Assembly (NCBI GenBank): GCA_040220235.1
Contig: JAVJTO010000051.1
Length of the DNA stretch: 64,000 nt
From: Coleofasciculus sp. B1-GNL1-01
GTDB lineage: Bacteria > Cyanobacteriota > Cyanobacteriia > Cyanobacteriales > Coleofasciculaceae
Reading direction: 5' to 3' (one strand)
Made by a program: the position numbers and the translations under genes. This document shows positions 54,893 to 63,888 of this stretch, piece after piece. The notes beneath the pieces were generated by a model. The model was not told the origin of the DNA, did not search any database, and worked only from the letters and a program-made list of their open reading frames with translations. How positions within the stretch are numbered: position 1 is the stretch's first letter; the number at the start of each line of letters is the position of its first letter.

Positions 54893-56011
54893 ATGACTCA
54901 TGTTGCCATCATTGGGTGTGGGATTGTTGGTGCCGCGATCGCTTATGAACTAAGTGGCGTTCCGGGGCTACAGGTGACTGTGTTAGATCGCCAACCACCC
55001 GCCCAAGGGTCAACTGGGGCAGCATTGGGTGTCTTGATGGGTGTAATTAGTCAAAAGGTTAAGGGAAGAACATGGCAGTTGCGCCAAGGCAGTATGCAGC
55101 GCTATGAAACCCTGATTCCGGAATTGGAAACGTTGACTGGGCATCACATTCCCTTTAACCGTCAAGGCATTCTAATGCTGGCGTTTGAGAACGATGATTT
55201 AGCCCGTTGGCAGAATTTAGTCAAAATTCGCCAATCTCAAGGATGGCAACTGGAAATTTGGAACCCCTCTCAGGTTCAATCCCACTGTCCTCAGCTTAAT
55301 CTGGAGAATAGTATCGGTGCGATTTATTCTCCCAATGATCGACAAGTTGAACCCACCGCCCTCACTCACGCCCTAGTCTCTGCCGCCGAAAAAAGGGGGG
55401 TAACGTTTAAGTTTGGTGTTGATGTTGAAGGGGTGGAATCCATACCTGCCAATGGTTCCAATCGGCGAATTTGTCAACAAATTCACACAAACAGGGAAAC
55501 TTTGGCAGTGAATTGGCTGGTAATTGCGGCTGGATTAGGTTCGGCGCAATTGGTCAATTTTCTGCTACCCCCACTTGATCACTCGTCTTCGATTAAGCTG
55601 AAACCCGTTCTCGGTCAAGCGTTACAATTACGCTTAGAAAATACAATCGGAAATCCCGATTTCCAGCCTGTGATTACCGGAGATGATGTGCATATTGTGC
55701 CAATCGGTGGCAGTGATTATTGGGTGGGGGCAACGGTTGAGTTCCCTGATGGCGCTGAAGTGGTAGCAGAACCTGCGTTACTTGAACAGGTTAAGGAAGA
55801 TGCGATCGCCTTTTGTCCCGCTTTAGCCCAAGCCACAGTGGTTCGCACTTGGTTAGGAAAACGTCCTCGTCCAGAAGGACAGCCTGCTCCGGTTATTGGT
55901 AAACTATCAGGTTATGATAATGTCTTGCTGGCAACGGGTCACTATCGCAACGGTGTTCTCCTCGCCCCAGCTACCGCCCAAGAGATTCAAGCAATAATCT
56001 GTGGCGTCTAG
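54893..56011 (+). CDS. FAD-dependent oxidoreductase (glycine/D-amino-acid oxidase family)
   Basis: IIGCGIVG, GQAL, GKRPRP, TGHYRNGVLLAPATA. Confidence 0.9.
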   Translation: MTHVAIIGCGIVGAAIAYELSGVPGLQVTVLDRQPPAQGSTGAALGVLMGVISQKVKGRTWQLRQGSMQRYETLIPELETLTGHHIPFNRQGILMLAFENDDLARWQNLVKIRQSQGWQLEIWNPSQVQSHCPQLNLENSIGAIYSPNDRQVEPTALTHALVSAAEKRGVTFKFGVDVEGVESIPANGSNRRICQQIHTNRETLAVNWLVIAAGLGSAQLVNFLLPPLDHSSSIKLKPVLGQALQLRLENTIGNPDFQPVITGDDVHIVPIGGSDYWVGATVEFPDGAEVVAEPALLEQVKEDAIAFCPALAQATVVRTWLGKRPRPEGQPAPVIGKLSGYDNVLLATGHYRNGVLLAPATAQEIQAIICGV

Positions 56012-56057
56012 AATCTAGTGCAGGGCTTGGTTTATTTAAGATGACGGTGAAGACGAC

Positions 56058-56954
56058 GTGTACCAACAAGAGCAAATTCAAGAGTTATTTGGAAAGCAAT
56101 TTCTCGATTATCTAAAAAACAAAAATAAAGGGGGAATAGTCAACGAAAAAAGTAATACTTATGAGAATTTTTTTGTCGTATATAAAATATCGGTTTTGTC
56201 CAAAGATGTCTTAGAAAATGATAAAGAAATATTCTTTGCTAGTCAAATCATGGCATTTGTTGATGACTTAATTATTAACGACATCCAGGAGAATATTTAT
56301 CAGCACTACCAGTTGAAAAATACTGCAAGTTTAAGATGGGGAAGTGGATTACGCTCAATTGCTGACGATTTTGTTAAACAATACAACTTAAATCAAACTA
56401 TATCAAAGCAATCAGAAATGACATTAGTTGTTTCTAACTTCCAACTCAGAGACAGGTTGGCAAATCAAATACCTCAGCAAATTGCCGAGTTTAGTAAAGT
56501 TGATTACTTTTACTTTGCCCCTAGTTTACCAAAAGTTCTTCAAGAAGAACAGGAGTTTAGCCAAGCGGTGGCATATCTTTGCGCTTTTGACAATCCTGAA
56601 CCCGATAAAATTGAATGTGTAGCTAGTGTGATTCTAGGCGCGTGGCTTTCCAGCGATAAATCTAATGTCTCTCTTAGGGAAATTTTGGAAAAATCTCGAC
56701 AATCGCAACCTTCTTATATTCGTTACTTTGGTAGCCAAGATGTGCAAATCGATCCAGAGGTTAAAAAAATTCTTGCTAAAATACAAGGGTTTACATACAG
56801 CATATCTAAAGGTTTTTTGCAATGGCAATTTGCGAATGGACTGGAAGAAGGAACTTTGCCATACAGTATAGAGACTGAAAACTTTAGACGCTTTCAAGAA
56901 CGAGTTAAGCAAAATAAACCAATGACATTTGATGAACTTGAAATTTACTTTTAA
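56058..56954 (+). CDS. Putative PD-(D/E)XK nuclease (Cap4/DUF4297-like N-terminus)
   Basis: GGIVNEKSNTYE ... FVDDLII ... HYQLKN motif order; AT-rich gene. Confidence 0.6.
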   Translation: MYQQEQIQELFGKQFLDYLKNKNKGGIVNEKSNTYENFFVVYKISVLSKDVLENDKEIFFASQIMAFVDDLIINDIQENIYQHYQLKNTASLRWGSGLRSIADDFVKQYNLNQTISKQSEMTLVVSNFQLRDRLANQIPQQIAEFSKVDYFYFAPSLPKVLQEEQEFSQAVAYLCAFDNPEPDKIECVASVILGAWLSSDKSNVSLREILEKSRQSQPSYIRYFGSQDVQIDPEVKKILAKIQGFTYSISKGFLQWQFANGLEEGTLPYSIETENFRRFQERVKQNKPMTFDELEIYF

Positions 56955-57037
56955 AGAAATTAAATTTTTAGAGTAAATATTTATGAACTTGCATAAAAAT
57001 TATACAATTATTTATTTTTAGTTATACAAAATAGGAG

Positions 57038-57769
57038 ATGATTGGTATGCAATTTACAACTAAAATAAACTCAAGATACTATACAGAATTAGCCGATACG
57101 GAAACAAAAAAATTTCTCGATAAGTTAGCAGATAAAAGCACATCTCCTGAAGCCTATCGCTCAGTTATGTTTAATCTAGGAGTAAAACTTGGCAATTCAA
57201 TTTTAAGGTCTATTAATAGTCAAAGCAATGTATATGTAGCTTGTACCGTTGAAGATGCGGATTTTTTAGCCAAAGGAATTCTTACGACTTTAGAACCTAA
57301 AGTTTCAAAACTTGCCTTCGCTTGTTTTTGGAATCAACGATTTTCCCCCTTTGAGATAAACGAGTTAAAAGTTGCTCCGATACTCAAAAAATATCAAGAG
57401 CCTGTTAATAATGATATTGTTCAGTATTTAATCGTGATTAAGTCCATTATCTCTGGTGCTTGTGTTGTGAGGACAAATCTAACTAATCTAATTCAAAAAA
57501 TTGAACCCGAAAAAATAATTATTGCTGCACCAGTCATTTATAAAACAGCAGAAGAAAAGTTAAGTAGTGAATTCAACAAGGATATTTACAGTAAATTTGA
57601 GTTTTTCTACTTTGCTAAAGATTCCACACGAGATGATAAAGGTATAGTTCTACCTGGTATTGGTGGTAGTGTGTATGAGCGGCTAGGTTTTGAAGGTCAA
57701 GATGAAAAGAATAGATATATTCCTGAAATCGTTAAATCTCGACGTCACAAGCTTATTCAAAAAATTTAG
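57038..57769 (+). CDS. Uracil-phosphoribosyltransferase-like (type I PRTase fold) protein, degenerate PRPP loop
   Basis: TSPEAYR..M..LG and GIVLPGIGGSVYERLG resemble UPRTase termini. LIVIKSIISG occupies the position of the usual VxDPMxATG loop. Confidence 0.6.
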   Translation: MIGMQFTTKINSRYYTELADTETKKFLDKLADKSTSPEAYRSVMFNLGVKLGNSILRSINSQSNVYVACTVEDADFLAKGILTTLEPKVSKLAFACFWNQRFSPFEINELKVAPILKKYQEPVNNDIVQYLIVIKSIISGACVVRTNLTNLIQKIEPEKIIIAAPVIYKTAEEKLSSEFNKDIYSKFEFFYFAKDSTRDDKGIVLPGIGGSVYERLGFEGQDEKNRYIPEIVKSRRHKLIQKI

Positions 57770-57778
57770 AATAGTGGT

Positions 57779-59989
57779 TTAAGTCTGGTTAGGTTTAAGA
57801 TTTAGGGGAATCTCTACAATAAATGAGGTTCCTTGTCCTGGATGAGAAACGCAACGAAGTTGACCGCCGTGTTTTTCCACCACAATCTTATAACTAATGG
57901 ACAGTCCTAATCCCGTTCCCTTTCCCACGGGCTTGGTGGTAAAAAATGGGTCAAATATATGCTCAAGGACATTTTGACTCATGCCATAACCATTGTCCCC
58001 AATCTGAATCACTGCCCAATCAGTCGCTTTTTCCGTTGAACTCCAGGACTGAACCCGATGAGTTTGGGTGCGAATCACAATTTGTGGCTCTCTGAGAGGA
58101 GCATCCGTTTGCGTCGCAGCCTCTGATAAGGCTTCAATCGCATTAGCCAGCAAATTCATAAACACTTGATTTAAAAGGCTAGAATAACATACCACCAACG
58201 GCAGTTGACCATACTCTTTAACGACCTTAATTTCAGGACGATTCTTCTGCGCTTGGAGTCGATGCTGCAAAATGAGTAGAGTATTATCAATTCCCTGATG
58301 AATATCGGCGGGTTTTAGTTCATCATCATGGCGTCTAGAGAAGCTGCGTAGCGATAAAACGATCTGCTGGAGACGTTCAGCGCCAACCTGCATCGATTGC
58401 ATCAATTTTTGCCAATCCTCTACTAGAAAATCTAACTCAATCTCCGACGAAATCTGGCGAATTTCTGATGTGGGATTGGGATAGCTCTGCCGATATGCTT
58501 TAATGAGGCGTGTCAAGTCTTCAAAGTATTGCTTGGTATAGTCAAGATTACCTGCAATAAAGTTAACGGGATTGTTCAATTCATGGGCGAGTCCGGCTAC
58601 CATTTCTCCGAGAGCCGACATTTTAGCCGCTTGGACGAGTTGGGCTTGAGTGTCTTGCAATTCCGAGAGAGTCGTTGTTAGCTGTTGCGCCTTTTGACGC
58701 TCTCGGACTTCCGATTGGCGTAGCGATTCTTGCGCCTGTTGGTGCTGGTTGGCTTCTAAGACTAAGGACACTAAATCGCCACTGGAACGAGCGAAATTCT
58801 GTTCTTCTGACGTCCAATGGCGCTCTTGACCCACCTGTTCATGGCATACAACACCCACGGTTTGACCCCCGATTCGGATGGGAGCATCCATCATCGAAGC
58901 AATTCCCAAGGGTGTTAAGTAAACAGACGAAAATTCGCCAGTTCTCGGGTCAGTGTGGGCATTGTCTGCTGCAATGAGTTGGTCAGCCATTAACGCTTGA
59001 AAATAGTTGGGATAATCAACGGCTGTCAGTTCGGTTCCTTCATTATGTTGGCGGCTACTGAGTTCAAACAGGTCAAAGCATTGAATCTGAGTTCGGTTCG
59101 AGTCAAACAGCCAGATACTTACCCGTTCAATGTTAAGGGTTTGAGCAGTTGCTTCTGTGATGGCTTGGAACGCTTCCTGCAAGTTTCCCTGATGCAGTGC
59201 TTTGTTTTTAGCCAGTTCCATTAACACCCGGTTTTGATGGTGCAATTTGTTGACACGTTGTTGTAGTTCTTGATGGGACTCAGCTAAGTTGGCTTGGGTC
59301 GATGACCGTTGGGTGTACTGATTGGGTAGAAGGAGATAGGCTTGTCTGGCAGCCAACCACACAACCCCATAGAGTAAGGTAAAAATGGAAACGGCAGCTA
59401 TTACAATTGTCCTCTGGGTGTGTTCAATGCGCTCTACTAAGGGAGTCTCATCCGTATAAAGTTCAAAAATACCTATAATTGGCTCACTGGCATTCTCAAG
59501 CTGGATGGGAATGTAGCTGGAAAAAAGCTGGCGGTCTGTAATTTTTCCGTTAATTCCCTGGAACTCTTGGTGCTGATTGTGTAATGTTAAGGTTTGACCG
59601 TTACGGGCAATGAGAAAGTCTTGGCTATTGGTTATTTTGCCAATCTCAGAGGGTTCCGTGGAAAAAATGGTGCGCCCTTGGTGGTTAGACAGTTTGACTT
59701 TAACCACGGATAGACCTTTGATCTCATTGATAACGGTGCGATGAAGTCTAGCGATTTCCTCCGATGATAGCAATTGCTCATCACTCAGTTTTTCGGCTGA
59801 TTGCAACAAGGGAGCTAAATCTGAACCCCAGGCATTGGCAAACGCTTGGGTTAATGCCACATTGTTACTTTCTCCCATCGCGACCAAATCGCCATGAACT
59901 TTCTGATGGTAAATGAAGCTGATAAAGACTGTGGCTAAACCAAAAGCGATTAAACTGATAATTGAAAAAGAACGGAGACGGTTTAACAT
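57779..59989 (-). CDS. Membrane sensor histidine kinase with GAF domain
   Basis: Two TM helices, GAF (ERVSIW, RHWTSEE), AHELNNP, NQVFMNLLANA, DNGYG, FFTTKPVGKGTGLGL. Confidence 0.93.
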   Translation of the reverse strand: MLNRLRSFSIISLIAFGLATVFISFIYHQKVHGDLVAMGESNNVALTQAFANAWGSDLAPLLQSAEKLSDEQLLSSEEIARLHRTVINEIKGLSVVKVKLSNHQGRTIFSTEPSEIGKITNSQDFLIARNGQTLTLHNQHQEFQGINGKITDRQLFSSYIPIQLENASEPIIGIFELYTDETPLVERIEHTQRTIVIAAVSIFTLLYGVVWLAARQAYLLLPNQYTQRSSTQANLAESHQELQQRVNKLHHQNRVLMELAKNKALHQGNLQEAFQAITEATAQTLNIERVSIWLFDSNRTQIQCFDLFELSSRQHNEGTELTAVDYPNYFQALMADQLIAADNAHTDPRTGEFSSVYLTPLGIASMMDAPIRIGGQTVGVVCHEQVGQERHWTSEEQNFARSSGDLVSLVLEANQHQQAQESLRQSEVRERQKAQQLTTTLSELQDTQAQLVQAAKMSALGEMVAGLAHELNNPVNFIAGNLDYTKQYFEDLTRLIKAYRQSYPNPTSEIRQISSEIELDFLVEDWQKLMQSMQVGAERLQQIVLSLRSFSRRHDDELKPADIHQGIDNTLLILQHRLQAQKNRPEIKVVKEYGQLPLVVCYSSLLNQVFMNLLANAIEALSEAATQTDAPLREPQIVIRTQTHRVQSWSSTEKATDWAVIQIGDNGYGMSQNVLEHIFDPFFTTKPVGKGTGLGLSISYKIVVEKHGGQLRCVSHPGQGTSFIVEIPLNLKPNQT

Positions 59990-60830: not shown

Positions 60831-61721
60831 GTGGCAATTGTAATTTCATTTATTAACTTTAAGGGAGGTGTGGGTAAAACAACAACCACCGTCGCCGTTG
60901 CTGAGATGCTGGCTGGGGTATTCCATCGCAAAGTTTTGGTTATTGACCTTGATCCGCAAACCAATGCCACATTAATGCTGATTGGCGAAGAACGATGGGA
61001 AGAACTTAATGAAAATCGTCACACCTTAGCCCAACTGTTTCTGGATGCGATCGCGCCAGAACATCCTAAGTTTCATCTGCAGAAAACCTTGCAAAAGCAA
61101 GTCTCTAATGTTAAAGATTTAACCAGTTTAGATTTGCTGCCGTCGAGTTTAGATCTAATCAATGTGCAAGATCGGCTAGCGACTATTCCCGCCGGACGGT
61201 TTTATGCCGCCAGTCCGATTAACATCTTGCGGCGAGGAATTCGCTCCTTAATTGACTCTTATGATTATATTCTCATCGACTGCCCACCTAATTTGGGTAT
61301 TGTGACACTCAATGGATTACGAATTTCTCAAGGTTATATCATTCCCACCATTCCGGATATTCTCTCAACCTATGGAATTCCCCAAATTACCAAAACTATT
61401 CATGAGTTTTCTGAAACGATTGCTGAACCGATTGTTCCCTTAGGCATTGTTATCTGTAAATATAATGCTGGCATGACACTTCACGATCGCGTGATTAAGG
61501 ATTTACGGCGATATAGTAAAGATGCCCGTGTCTTTGAAACCCAAATTCCGCACAAACAACAAATTGCTGAAACCGTTGAATTCAATCAAGCCGATAAGTT
61601 TTCAACCTTGCGACAAAAATGGGGATATGCGGGTCAGTTTGAACAATATCTAAATTTGGCAAAAGAAATCCGACTCGCGGCGAGTCAAATTATCAAAGAT
61701 AAGCCATCTTACTTCAGTTGA
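60831..61721 (+). CDS. ParA/Soj family ATPase
   Basis: Deviant Walker A KGGVGKTT, IDLDPQ.NAT, IDCPP. Confidence 0.9.
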   Translation: MAIVISFINFKGGVGKTTTTVAVAEMLAGVFHRKVLVIDLDPQTNATLMLIGEERWEELNENRHTLAQLFLDAIAPEHPKFHLQKTLQKQVSNVKDLTSLDLLPSSLDLINVQDRLATIPAGRFYAASPINILRRGIRSLIDSYDYILIDCPPNLGIVTLNGLRISQGYIIPTIPDILSTYGIPQITKTIHEFSETIAEPIVPLGIVICKYNAGMTLHDRVIKDLRRYSKDARVFETQIPHKQQIAETVEFNQADKFSTLRQKWGYAGQFEQYLNLAKEIRLAASQIIKDKPSYFS

Positions 61722-61736
61722 ACGTGGAGACATTGC

Positions 61737-62138
61737 ATGAGCCTTGACAAACTTATGGCATTGATCAAACTCCTAGACGAAGTTCGTCCTGATCCCCAGG
61801 CGACTCTGACTAAATACCAACATGATCCCGACTTTGCCCAAGAGATTGATTCCTTATTTCAAATCTTATCGACAAAAAGCAAATCTCGGTCGAAAAAACG
61901 CCGCACTCGCCGACGTACCAGTGTTTTCGATCCGGTTGAACTCTATCACCAGAAAGGAGAGAAACATTTACGCGAACAGTTGCAGCAACTTGAGGTTGAA
62001 CAACTTAAAGATATGATTGCCGAACATGGGATGGATTCCAGTCGGCGGGCAATGCGCTGGAAAAAACGCGATCGCCTGATTGAGTTGATTGTCAAAACCG
62101 CTAGCTGTCGCGCCCGTAAAGGCGATGCCTTTCGCTGA
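61737..62138 (+). CDS. Small basic hypothetical protein downstream of ParA
   Basis: GGAG RBS, 15 bp after the parA stop, KSKSRSKKRRTRRR patch, helical C-terminus. Confidence 0.75.
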   Translation: MSLDKLMALIKLLDEVRPDPQATLTKYQHDPDFAQEIDSLFQILSTKSKSRSKKRRTRRRTSVFDPVELYHQKGEKHLREQLQQLEVEQLKDMIAEHGMDSSRRAMRWKKRDRLIELIVKTASCRARKGDAFR

Positions 62139-63271: not shown

Positions 63272-63598
63272 TTATTGCAGAATTCGTTCGACATCACTTT
63301 TGAGTTTGGGTAGCTCATGTTCTACAATTGACCAAACAATATCAGTATCGACTCGAAAATATTCATGAACTAAAATATTCCTAAAATCGGCAATATCTTG
63401 CCAAGGAACTTCGGGATACTGGGTAATAAAGGATTCTGAAATAGACGCAGATGCTTCTCCAATAATTTGCAAGTGATGGATTATCCAAATCTGGATGAGT
63501 TCATCATTTTCAAAGACTTGCTTTCCGCGCACGGCATATTTTTCAATCTTGGCGATCCCGTCTTGAATATCTCGCAGTCGTTCGCGATCATCCCTCAT
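63272..63598 (-). CDS. HepT-like (DUF86) HEPN ribonuclease toxin
   Basis: LQIIGEA, VPW..IADFRNILVHEY (RX4HXY). Start MRDDRE overlaps the MNT stop. Confidence 0.9.
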   Translation of the reverse strand: MRDDRERLRDIQDGIAKIEKYAVRGKQVFENDELIQIWIIHHLQIIGEASASISESFITQYPEVPWQDIADFRNILVHEYFRVDTDIVWSIVEHELPKLKSDVERILQ

Positions 63599-63888
63599 AG
63601 CGGTATTGCCTCTTTTAGCACCCGTTCGCGGATGCGTTCTTTCAAGCCTTTTTCTGTGACGACATCGACGTTGCGACCTAGCAATTTTTCTAAGTCTCGA
63701 ATGAATCGCACCGGAAACCAAGGGCTAAGGTTTTCTCCTAAATCAATCAGAAAATCAATGTCGCTGTCTTGGTCGGCTTCTCCCCGTGCTACCGACCCAA
63801 AAATCCGGATATTACAAGCACCGTGTTGGGTAGCAAGGTTTAATATTTCTTCTCGCTTTTGTGTGATTAATTCTTCCAGTTCCATCAT
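63595..63888 (-). CDS. MntA-like minimal nucleotidyltransferase antitoxin
   Basis: IFGSVARGEADQDSDIDFL (GSX10DXD), LGRNVDVV. Confidence 0.92.
   Translation of the reverse strand: MMELEELITQKREEILNLATQHGACNIRIFGSVARGEADQDSDIDFLIDLGENLSPWFPVRFIRDLEKLLGRNVDVVTEKGLKERIRERVLKEAIPL

What the first reader, a model, noticed from the sequence alone, without database searches (positions are those of the whole stretch)
56058..57769. Candidate anti-phage module: PD-(D/E)XK nuclease plus degenerate UPRTase-fold partner
Seen: two co-oriented, visibly AT-rich genes, with no HIP1 site that I could find, between a conserved oxidoreductase and a histidine kinase. Gene 1 has GG..N.K...YE / DDL / QLK in the order of Cap4/DUF4297-type restriction-like nucleases. 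Gene 2 has UPRTase-like N- and C-terminal signatures, but its PRPP loop reads IKSIISG and lacks the acidic residue. Known: PD-(D/E)XK effectors paired with nucleotide-binding sensors are common in defence systems, and PRTase folds can act as ligand sensors (PyrR). Inference: gene 2 senses nucleotide-pool or PRPP changes, or a phage product, and controls the nuclease as an abortive-infection or toxin-antitoxin-like system. I cannot match the pair to a named system.
Basis: partly seen in the sequence, partly recalled or inferred. Interest (0 to 1): 0.82.

Follow-up and report, generated by a model that had tools for sequence, protein, structure and literature searches.

The report
Cap4-like nuclease with repurposed UPRTase partner
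A mobile, uncatalogued two-gene cassette found in several bacterial phyla pairs a predicted DNA-cutting immune enzyme with a rewired copy of a uracil-salvage enzyme that likely keeps it switched off until infection, which would be a new way of controlling bacterial antiviral self-destruction.

Summary
Gene 1 (298 aa) models as a Cap4-type PD-(D/E)XK nuclease (best folds Cap4, HamA, Avs3, LmuA) with a near-invariant D70-Q85-K87 triad and no recognisable sensor domain. Gene 2 models as a UPRTase (Z 20), but three catalytic or PRPP-binding residues are replaced by new near-invariant ones (Arg>Asp, Asp>Lys, Asp>Gly); the genome has two ordinary upp genes. The pair is a translationally coupled cassette in Cyanobacteria, Pseudomonadota, Bacteroidota and Myxococcota, on small plasmids, in viral contigs and beside defence genes. 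It is patchy: 25 of 401 genomes of the order carry it intact. Decay is one-sided: all 25 intact nucleases have an intact partner, 9 intact partners lack an intact nuclease, and the 4 broken partners have no nuclease. This fits a nuclease that is toxic unless gene 2 restrains it. No Pfam, NCBIfam or PADLOC (2023) family passed threshold, and 10 literature searches found no such pair. Anti-phage activity, binding and ligand are untested. This window's nuclease allele carries a private substitution at an otherwise invariant glycine.

The parts
56058..56954 (+). Gene 1: 298-aa Cap4-like PD-(D/E)XK nuclease. Residues ~24-223 match the Cap4/HamA/Avs3/LmuA nuclease module; residues ~228-298 form an acidic alpha/beta domain with no fold match found
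   Evidence: AF2 pLDDT 92.8; VIA-align Cap4 6vm6 Z 11.4, rmsd 3.9, 170 aligned; Foldseek E 5e-5 to 7e-4; last 75 residues have median net charge -5 across 52 homologues
56262..56318 (+). Predicted catalytic motif D69-D70 ... Q85-x-K87 (codons at 56262, 56265, 56310, 56316)
   Evidence: Among 144 representatives of 50%-identity clusters: D70 in 139 of 140 with a residue, Q85 141 of 141, K87 136 K and 5 R of 141. Same D/Q/K pattern as AbpA D45/Q58/K60
56151..56153 (+). Codon 32, Ser in this allele at a position that is Gly in essentially all homologues; possibly a weakened allele or an assembly error
   Evidence: Gly in 137 of 137 representatives with a residue and 74 of 75 rows of A1; the near-identical copy L001 has Gly
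56955..57037 (.). 83-bp, 16% GC spacer with the RBS of gene 2. Lineage-specific: most homologues overlap by 4 bp instead
   Evidence: 42 of 52 intact pairs overlap by 4 bp; one weak sigma70-like match at 56938-56966, within chance
57038..57769 (+). Gene 2: UPRTase-fold protein (likely start 57047, 240 aa) with a rewired active site: TVEDAD in place of (I/L)xRAG, KSIISG in place of DPMxATG, PGIGG in place of PGLGD; UPRTase beta-arm deleted
   Evidence: AF2 pLDDT 85.3; 1vst Z 20.0, rmsd 2.7, 190 aligned; hhalign to the genome's own UPRTases, P 83%, E 8.6e-6; conservation in 235 homologues
56039..57779 (.). Variable slot between the thiO-like gene and the kinase, filled by the cassette
   Evidence: In same-genus genome G537, synteny breaks at 56038 and resumes at 57780; the slot holds a GNAT gene and a RibD_C gene instead

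Best explanation
The two genes form a mobile, translationally coupled cassette that likely acts as an abortive-infection or toxin-antitoxin-type defence system: gene 1 is a predicted Cap4-type DNase that is likely toxic on its own, and gene 2 is a UPRTase-derived protein that likely holds it inactive and would release it when its rewired pocket is engaged or the protein is lost during infection. Shown here: the folds, the intact nuclease triad, the replaced UPRTase residues, conserved pairing, mobility and the one-sided decay. Inferred: DNase activity, toxicity, restraint by gene 2 (probably by direct binding), activation by nuclease oligomerisation after release as in Lamassu LmuA, and phage protection. 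The ligand is a guess: a phosphorylated pyrimidine nucleotide or similar product of phage-driven DNA breakdown, rather than PRPP.
For: Fold: top hits for gene 1 are all defence nucleases, Cap4 Z 11.4, HamA 10.9, Avs3 10.6, LmuA 9.8, next other row 7.0; the best 150 of 680 family clusters are all 344 aa or shorter, leaving no room for a fused SAVED or STAND sensor. Gene 2 is not the housekeeping enzyme: the genome has two canonical upp genes. The MtUPRT residues Arg77 (PRPP) and Asp198 (catalysis) (passages, PMC3570474) correspond to Asp73 and Gly210, and the PRPP-loop Asp to Lys135. These replacements are near-invariant: D73 233, K135 229, G210 230 of 235. Gene 2 is more conserved than the nuclease (55% vs 44% mean identity, 52 pairs); dN/dS to relatives is 0.15-0.47, with one near-identical pair uninformative. 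Pairing: 52 of 71 scorable gene-2 loci have intact gene 1 directly upstream; 37 of 39 scorable intact gene-1 metagenome loci have intact gene 2. Polarity in an unbiased sample of 401 genomes: 25 of 25 intact nucleases have an intact partner, 9 intact partners lack one (sign test p 0.004; 0.006 after target-size correction), and broken partners occur in 0 of 25 vs 4 of 13 (Fisher p 0.01). Of 8 genomes of this genus, 3 carry both ORFs, 4 have different lesions that all hit gene 1, and 1 has other genes in the slot. Context: both genes together on 2 plasmids and a 9.2-kb circular contig; pair in 3 of 10 viral-collection loci; defence neighbours at 11 of 21 further loci; PADLOC hits in 8 of 11 case vs 3 of 11 control regions. 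Precedent: LmuA is sequestered, then released and tetramerises (passages, PMC12663957).
Against: No experiment. Two metagenome loci depart from the rule: L155 has intact gene 1 with gene 2 cut at about residue 182, and L125 has gene 1 lacking only its last ~28 residues with no gene 2. Cap4-type domains are often inactive alone and need a partner to be switched on (HerA-DUF4297, passages). In G166 gene 1 is intact while gene 2's PRPP loop is altered and fused to an IrrE/M78 peptidase, so the pocket is not always kept. The case-control on defence neighbours is not significant by region (p 0.086), several cases share one DISARM-like locus, and kin are not independent. The window's own neighbourhood is not a defence island. 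The window's allele has the G32S change. Orphan gene-2 copies still show dN/dS below 1 (0.21, 0.36), which recent loss or an independent function would both explain.
Confidence: 0.55

Rival explanations
1. Same defence cassette, opposite polarity: gene 1 is inert alone and gene 2 is an activator, a ligand-driven oligomeric scaffold that clusters nuclease domains, as SAVED does in Cap4 and HerA does for DUF4297.
For: DUF4297 is robustly active only with HerA, and oligomerisation is required for Cap4 (passages). T. gondii UPRT is stabilised as a tetramer by GTP (passages). L155 and L125 keep a nuclease domain without a full partner.
Against: An activator model predicts that losing either gene relieves the cost equally, yet decay is 9 to 0 and 19 of 71 vs 2 of 39 in the two pattern-based samples (p 0.005, different collections). 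The beta-arm that I recall as part of the UPRTase dimer interface is deleted.
Confidence: 0.17
2. Gene 2 is not a passive binder but an enzyme with new chemistry: the invariant acidic E72-D73-x-D75 cluster binds metal and makes or destroys a nucleotide that keeps the nuclease off (a guard-type signal), or it modifies the nuclease.
For: E72, D73, D75, N99, K135, S136 and D195 are near-invariant in 235 sequences, more like a catalytic site than a decayed one. Enzymatic control would give the same one-sided decay. ShosA neutralises ShosT without direct binding (abstract and section title, PMC12961424).
Against: Gene 1 has no recognised ligand-binding domain. Tight translational coupling and co-inheritance (Mantel rho 0.93, kin not corrected) suit a 1:1 complex. 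The catalytic Asp of UPRTase is gone.
Confidence: 0.14
3. A selfish addiction (post-segregational killing) module that stabilises plasmids and islands, with no real anti-phage role.
For: It is among the few genes of 9-10-kb plasmids, sits next to integrases or recombinases in viral-collection loci and shows toxin-first decay.
Against: Most copies are chromosomal and many sit within or beside RM, DISARM-like, Dsr2, BREX, Gabija or CRISPR loci. All close structural relatives of gene 1 are anti-phage effectors. A conserved ligand-type pocket is not needed for addiction.
Confidence: 0.1
4. Gene 2 is an ordinary or divergent salvage UPRTase that happens to lie beside an unrelated nuclease.
For: UPRTase fold, Z 20; some sources auto-name homologues UPRTase; gene 2 persists without gene 1 in some genomes.
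Against: Catalytic Asp and both PRPP-binding positions are replaced family-wide; no Pfam UPRTase hit; two canonical upp genes exist; pairing holds across four phyla.
Confidence: 0.03

Closest known systems
CBASS Cap4 (PF14130; AbCap4 6vm6, EcCap4 7yib)
   Same: Nuclease module fold over ~170 residues (Z 11.4 and 9.2); D...(E/Q)xK triad; 3 of 25 homologues touch PF14130 weakly (best E 0.004)
   Different: No SAVED domain (family ~300 aa) and no CD-NTase conserved beside it; partner is a UPRTase-fold protein
Lamassu LmuA-Cap4, Hachiman/AbpAB, Avs3, HerA-DUF4297
   Same: Cap4-type effector controlled by a separate partner (Z 8.0-10.9 for LmuA, HamA, Avs3; HerA-DUF only 4.5-5.7); AbpA uses the same D/Q/K triad; LmuA sequestration-and-release is the model for my mechanism
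   Different: Their partners are ATP-driven SMC, helicase, STAND or HerA proteins that read DNA or phage proteins; here the only partner is a 230-240-aa PRTase-fold protein with no P-loop NTPase
Defence PRTases: ShosT (ShosTA), PsyrT, retron type III-A effector (Retron-Eco11), Ophion OpnC, DS-32A
   Same: Type I PRTase fold used in anti-phage systems (passages; abstract)
   Different: ShosT, PsyrT and the retron III PRTases are described as the toxin or effector, and ShosT needs PRPP binding; OpnC is essential in a system that does not trigger abortive infection. Here the PRTase is UPRTase-like, has lost PRPP motifs, persists alone and appears to be the restraining side. Only a sub-threshold PADLOC hit (PRTase_III-A, E 0.02)
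Uracil phosphoribosyltransferase (PF14681; 1vst, 1i5e, 1bd3) and PyrR
   Same: Whole-chain fold, Z 17-20 to UPRTases vs 9.3 to PyrR; N-terminal helices and the C-terminal PG(L/I)G loop kept
   Different: Arg>Asp, Asp>Lys and Asp>Gly at the PPi, PRPP and catalytic positions; beta-arm deleted; extra basic C-terminal helix

Membership tests
Cap4-like / PD-(D/E)XK nuclease (gene 1) | Restriction-endonuclease-like core plus the helical extension of the Cap4 nuclease domain | tested here: met
   Z 11.4, rmsd 3.9, 170 aligned, model range 26-223; Foldseek prob 1.00, E 4e-4
Cap4-like / PD-(D/E)XK nuclease (gene 1) | D...(E/Q)xK catalytic triad | tested here: met
   D70/Q85/K87 near-invariant; equivalence to Cap4 D50/E67/K69 and AbpA D45/Q58/K60 is by motif order, not by superposed coordinates
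Cap4-like / PD-(D/E)XK nuclease (gene 1) | Passes the Pfam PF14130 cut-off | tested here: not met
   0 hits for the window protein; 3 of 25 homologues at E >= 0.004
Cap4-like / PD-(D/E)XK nuclease (gene 1) | Metal-dependent dsDNA cleavage | not testable with these tools
   needs biochemistry
CBASS | CD-NTase gene and a nucleotide-sensing SAVED/CARF domain on the effector | tested here: not met
   No SAVED by Pfam or length; no CD-NTase hit among 111 and 80 scanned neighbours
Lamassu / Hachiman / AbpAB / Avs / HerA-DUF4297 | Conserved NTPase partner (SMC, SF2 helicase, STAND, HerA) | tested here: not met
   The only conserved partner is gene 2; no PADLOC model of these systems hits either gene
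UPRTase (gene 2) | UPRTase fold | tested here: met
   Z 20.0, rmsd 2.7, 190 aligned; next non-UPRTase row 11.6; Foldseek E 1e-11
UPRTase (gene 2) | PRPP-binding Arg (MtUPRT R77), PRPP-loop acidic residue and catalytic Asp (MtUPRT D198) | tested here: not met
   Aligned positions are D73, K135 and G210, fixed in 229-233 of 235 homologues
UPRTase (gene 2) | Flexible-loop Arg (MtUPRT R102) | tested here: inconclusive
   R101 (205 of 235) sits at the end of the matching strand, but the alignments do not place it there
UPRTase (gene 2) | UMP synthesis from uracil and PRPP | not testable with these tools
   needs assay or delta-upp complementation
ShosTA / PsyrTA / retron III-A / Ophion / DS-32 | Named partner (DprA, RT plus ncRNA, rSAM plus PHP, NADAR) and a family HMM match | tested here: not met
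   Partner is a Cap4-like nuclease; best PADLOC hit E 0.02. Ophion and DS-32 postdate the 2023 library and were compared by partner only
Type II toxin-antitoxin / abortive infection system | Two-gene operon on mobile DNA, toxin not found without antitoxin | tested here: met
   25 of 25 and 37 of 39, with the two exceptions described
Type II toxin-antitoxin / abortive infection system | Toxicity, rescue, direct binding and phage protection | not testable with these tools

The most novel reading that the evidence does not exclude
An undescribed, cross-phylum anti-phage system in which the housekeeping salvage enzyme UPRTase was turned into a nucleotide-sensing antitoxin. Its charge-swapped pocket reads a nucleotide signature of infection (for example pyrimidine deoxynucleotides from host-DNA breakdown, or modified phage nucleotides) and releases a Cap4-type DNase. 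This would be a sensor class for Cap4 effectors needing neither second messenger nor NTPase, and a defence PRTase acting as brake rather than toxin.
Probability: 0.33. Interest if true: 0.88.

Novelty: new variant of a known kind. Interest (0 to 1): 0.72.

Why it matters
Cap4-type nucleases are among the most reused immune effectors, and in the systems I checked they are controlled by a cyclic-nucleotide sensor or an ATP-driven partner. The defence PRTases I found described are mostly toxins or effectors. This cassette appears to break both patterns with just two small genes. The nuclease family is sizeable (292 clusters at 50% identity with E<=1e-30) and is unannotated in Pfam, NCBIfam and PADLOC. 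It is a cheap, direct test of whether bacteria sense infection through a repurposed metabolic enzyme pocket. It also explains a recurrent hypothetical gene pair in cyanobacteria, and warns that some automatic 'uracil phosphoribosyltransferase' labels are likely wrong.

Tried and rejected
HIP1 absence as evidence of foreign origin: P(0)=0.25, rejected. Family scans gave nothing above cut-off for either gene (Pfam, PADLOC, NCBIfam). Sequence search of PDB: nothing for gene 1; for gene 2 only UPRTases, best E 6e-4 and 3e-3. No match in 50,697 GenBank phage records for either gene. Viral fold library: only generic PRTases, best E 2e-5, TM 0.35-0.44 for the top three. Protein atlas: nearest clusters have no common Pfam family; later rows point to Cap4_nuclease (27% of members) and UPRTase; leads only. 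No fold was found for gene 1 residues ~228-298, which were not folded alone. Promoter scan: 11 sites vs 6.0 +/- 2.3 in shuffles, none convincing. A third gene: no neighbour is conserved across loci. Earlier scan findings: four look-ups empty; the fifth gave only other gene pairs. Five control regions fetched (L259-L263) were not scanned; 25 of 136 listed neighbour ORFs of loci L058-L080 were not scanned. In one search I discounted hits that look like housekeeping genes (Rep/UvrD-type helicases, an ABC-F protein, a RecG-like helicase, a sigma-54 activator).
Full report
OBSERVATION. GC is 0.328 against 0.455 for the genome, lower than all but 0.09% of 9,872 windows. HIP1 is absent but only 1.39 sites were expected (P=0.25). 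Gene 2 probably starts at 57047. The closest titled loci are Coleofasciculus at 93-100% identity. Each gene is single-copy in the genome.

GENE 1. No Pfam, NCBIfam or PADLOC family hits it. The AlphaFold model (75 sequences, pLDDT 92.8) matches, among 48,161 representative chains, AbCap4 (Z 11.4, rmsd 3.9, 170 aligned), HamA 10.9, Avs3 10.6, LmuA 9.8, EcCap4 9.2 and a second LmuA 8.0, above the next row at 7.0; Foldseek agrees. D70, Q85 and K87 are near-invariant in 144 representatives of 50%-identity clusters. Cap4 needs D50/E67/K69, and AbpA has D45/Q58/K60 with Q58A and K60A abolishing defence (passages of PMC10732053), so the Gln form is compatible with activity. The family has 680 clusters at E<=1e-3 and 292 at E<=1e-30; the best 150 are 344 aa or shorter, so there is no fused sensor. 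The last ~70 residues have no fold match and are acidic. The window's allele has Ser at position 32, where 137 of 137 representatives and the near-identical L001 copy have Gly; it may be weakened or misassembled, and the reads did not settle this.

GENE 2. The model (pLDDT 85.3) matches UPRTases at Z 17-20, well above other PRTases (11.6 or less). Profile alignment to the genome's own two canonical UPRTases and to 1vst puts TVEDAD on SIMRAG, KSIISG on DPMVATG and PGIGG on PGLGD, and shows the beta-arm missing. In MtUPRT, Arg77 is proposed to bind PRPP and Asp198 to be catalytic (passages of PMC3570474). These are fixed replacements, not decay: E72 234, D73 233, D75 234, K135 229, G210 230 of 235 sequences, and gene 2 is more conserved than the nuclease (55% vs 44% over 52 pairs). 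A new function under selection follows; whether it is binding or catalysis is inference.

PAIRING AND RANGE. A scan of GTDB genomes with gene-2 patterns confirmed 109 loci and kept 80. Nine are cut by contig ends; of 71 scorable, 52 have intact gene 1 directly upstream (42 with a 4-bp overlap), 8 a broken one and 11 none by HMM, 2 of these with short remnants. Intact pairs occur in Cyanobacteria, Gamma-, Beta- and Alphaproteobacteria, Bacteroidota and Myxococcota by record title. The reciprocal scan of metagenomes with gene 1 gave 64 loci: 19 with gene 1 broken or cut, 6 ending too soon, 37 with intact gene 2 and 2 without. The distribution is patchy: gene 1 in 9 and gene 2 in 11 of 401 phylum genomes, and 33 and 38 of 401 order genomes (the samples overlap). 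Both genes lie together on 2 of 72,556 plasmid records, on a 9.2-kb circular contig with a DUF3854 protein and an integrase and in 3 of 10 viral-collection loci; 2 more are cut at the contig start and 5 have gene 2 only. No GenBank phage record matched. In same-genus G537 the slot holds unrelated genes.

ONE-SIDED DECAY. In the order sample, searched the same way for both genes, 25 genomes have intact gene 1 (24 plain, plus G645 across a circular junction) and all 25 have full-length gene 2 beside it. Nine have intact gene 2 with gene 1 truncated, deleted, multiply stopped or absent. Four have broken gene 2, none with gene 1. Two have only gene-1 fragments. Sign test 9 vs 0: p 0.004, or 0.006 allowing for gene length; broken gene 2 in 0 of 25 vs 4 of 13: p 0.01. 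Kin are not independent, but within this genus four different lesions all hit gene 1. Against: L155 (gene 1 intact, gene 2 cut near residue 182 at an abrupt sequence switch), L125 (gene 1 minus its last ~28 residues, no gene 2), and G166, where gene 2's PRPP loop is altered and fused to an IrrE/M78 peptidase.

NEIGHBOURHOOD. Of 21 loci from L058-L080 (111 of 136 listed ORFs scanned), 11 have a defence neighbour: type I, IIG or III RM, Dsr2, CRISPR-Cas, BREX with Gabija, PifA, PDC-S69; three of the 11 lack gene 1; there was no control for this set. In a paired cyanobacterial test, 8 of 11 13-kb regions around the cassette (2 of them without intact gene 1) vs 3 of 11 regions about 100 kb away had PADLOC hits at E<=1e-40 (17 of 80 vs 3 of 94 proteins; p 0.086 by region, 2e-4 by protein). 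Several cases are one DISARM/Druantia-like methylase-helicase locus with the pair inserted in it, so the support is moderate. The window's own surroundings are not an island.

MECHANISM. Most likely (0.55) gene 1 is a DNase that is toxic when free, and gene 2 restrains it and acts as the trigger. The model is Lamassu, where LmuA is held monomeric and tetramerises on release (passages of PMC12663957). The kept phosphate-binding loop, the new Lys and the acidic cluster suggest a phosphorylated ligand other than PRPP; this step is a guess. Rivals: gene 2 as activating scaffold (0.17; HerA-DUF4297 precedent, passages of 10.1101/2024.10.24.620088), gene 2 as an enzyme making or removing a repressing nucleotide (0.14), pure addiction module (0.10), ordinary UPRTase (0.03). 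The first three all make it a regulated defence-type nuclease cassette.

WHAT IS KNOWN. Ten full-text searches found no paper describing a Cap4-like nuclease with a UPRTase-like partner. I read passages of 10.1101/2025.09.30.679545 (Ophion; lists ShosTA, PsyrTA and retron III PRTases as toxin or effector), both DefensePredictor versions (DS-32 is NADAR plus PRTase; 14 PD-(D/E)XK proteins not itemised in the passages seen), 10.1101/2024.02.09.579579, PMC5512222, PMC12191111, PMC13408691, and the abstract and outline of PMC12961424; PMC10542128 had no matching passage. Limits: the PADLOC copy is from 2023, DefenseFinder was not available, subscription papers are missing, and I opened no supplements. 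Large prediction tables could list this pair as a candidate.

VERDICT. A real, conserved, mobile and apparently uncatalogued two-gene system: a new variant of the nuclease-plus-regulator kind, with a regulator type I could not find described. Interest 0.72.

Noticed in passing
L101:496-2190 (-) (G166:C11): Gene 2 is fused to a C-terminal IrrE/ImmA (Peptidase_M78, E 1e-8) domain in a 564-aa protein, with its PRPP loop further altered while gene 1 stays intact; possibly a swap to protease-based sensing.
   Followed up: partly
L035:5998-11760 (+): Gene 2 is fused in frame to a DEAD/DEAH helicase with an MZB domain (1,920 aa), downstream of intact gene 1; could be a lost stop codon or a real fusion.
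   Followed up: partly
L239, L240, L244, L247, L238, L035, L038: A recurrent cyanobacterial DISARM/Druantia-like locus (SNF2 helicase, large methylase, DruE-like helicase) carries the cassette as cargo between methylase and helicase; it looks like a defence hotspot.
   Followed up: partly
L108, L109, L111, L112 vs L110: Closely related viral-collection contigs carry the same gene 2 next to a tail-like gene; only L110 has gene 1.
   Followed up: partly
L116:4234-5001 and L073:5001-5957: Gene 2 homologues preceded by unrelated ORFs with no Pfam hit (255 aa, hydrophobic; 318 aa, after Gabija); possible partner swaps or chance neighbours.
   Followed up: no
window 60831-62138: ParA-like ATPase (296 aa) followed by a 133-aa ORF with no confident family, conserved in order in same-genus genomes beside the variable slot.
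   Followed up: no
G000:C81:48940-49551 and G000:C135:34680-35303: The genome has two canonical UPRTase genes, 40% identical to each other.
   Followed up: partly
window 63272-63888: Small gene pair on the minus strand after hemB that looks like a nucleotidyltransferase plus DUF86/HEPN toxin-antitoxin pair (recalled from sequence appearance, not scanned).
   Followed up: no
window 54897-54898: A related strain's contig has a 1,528-letter insertion at the very start of the thiO-like gene.
   Followed up: no
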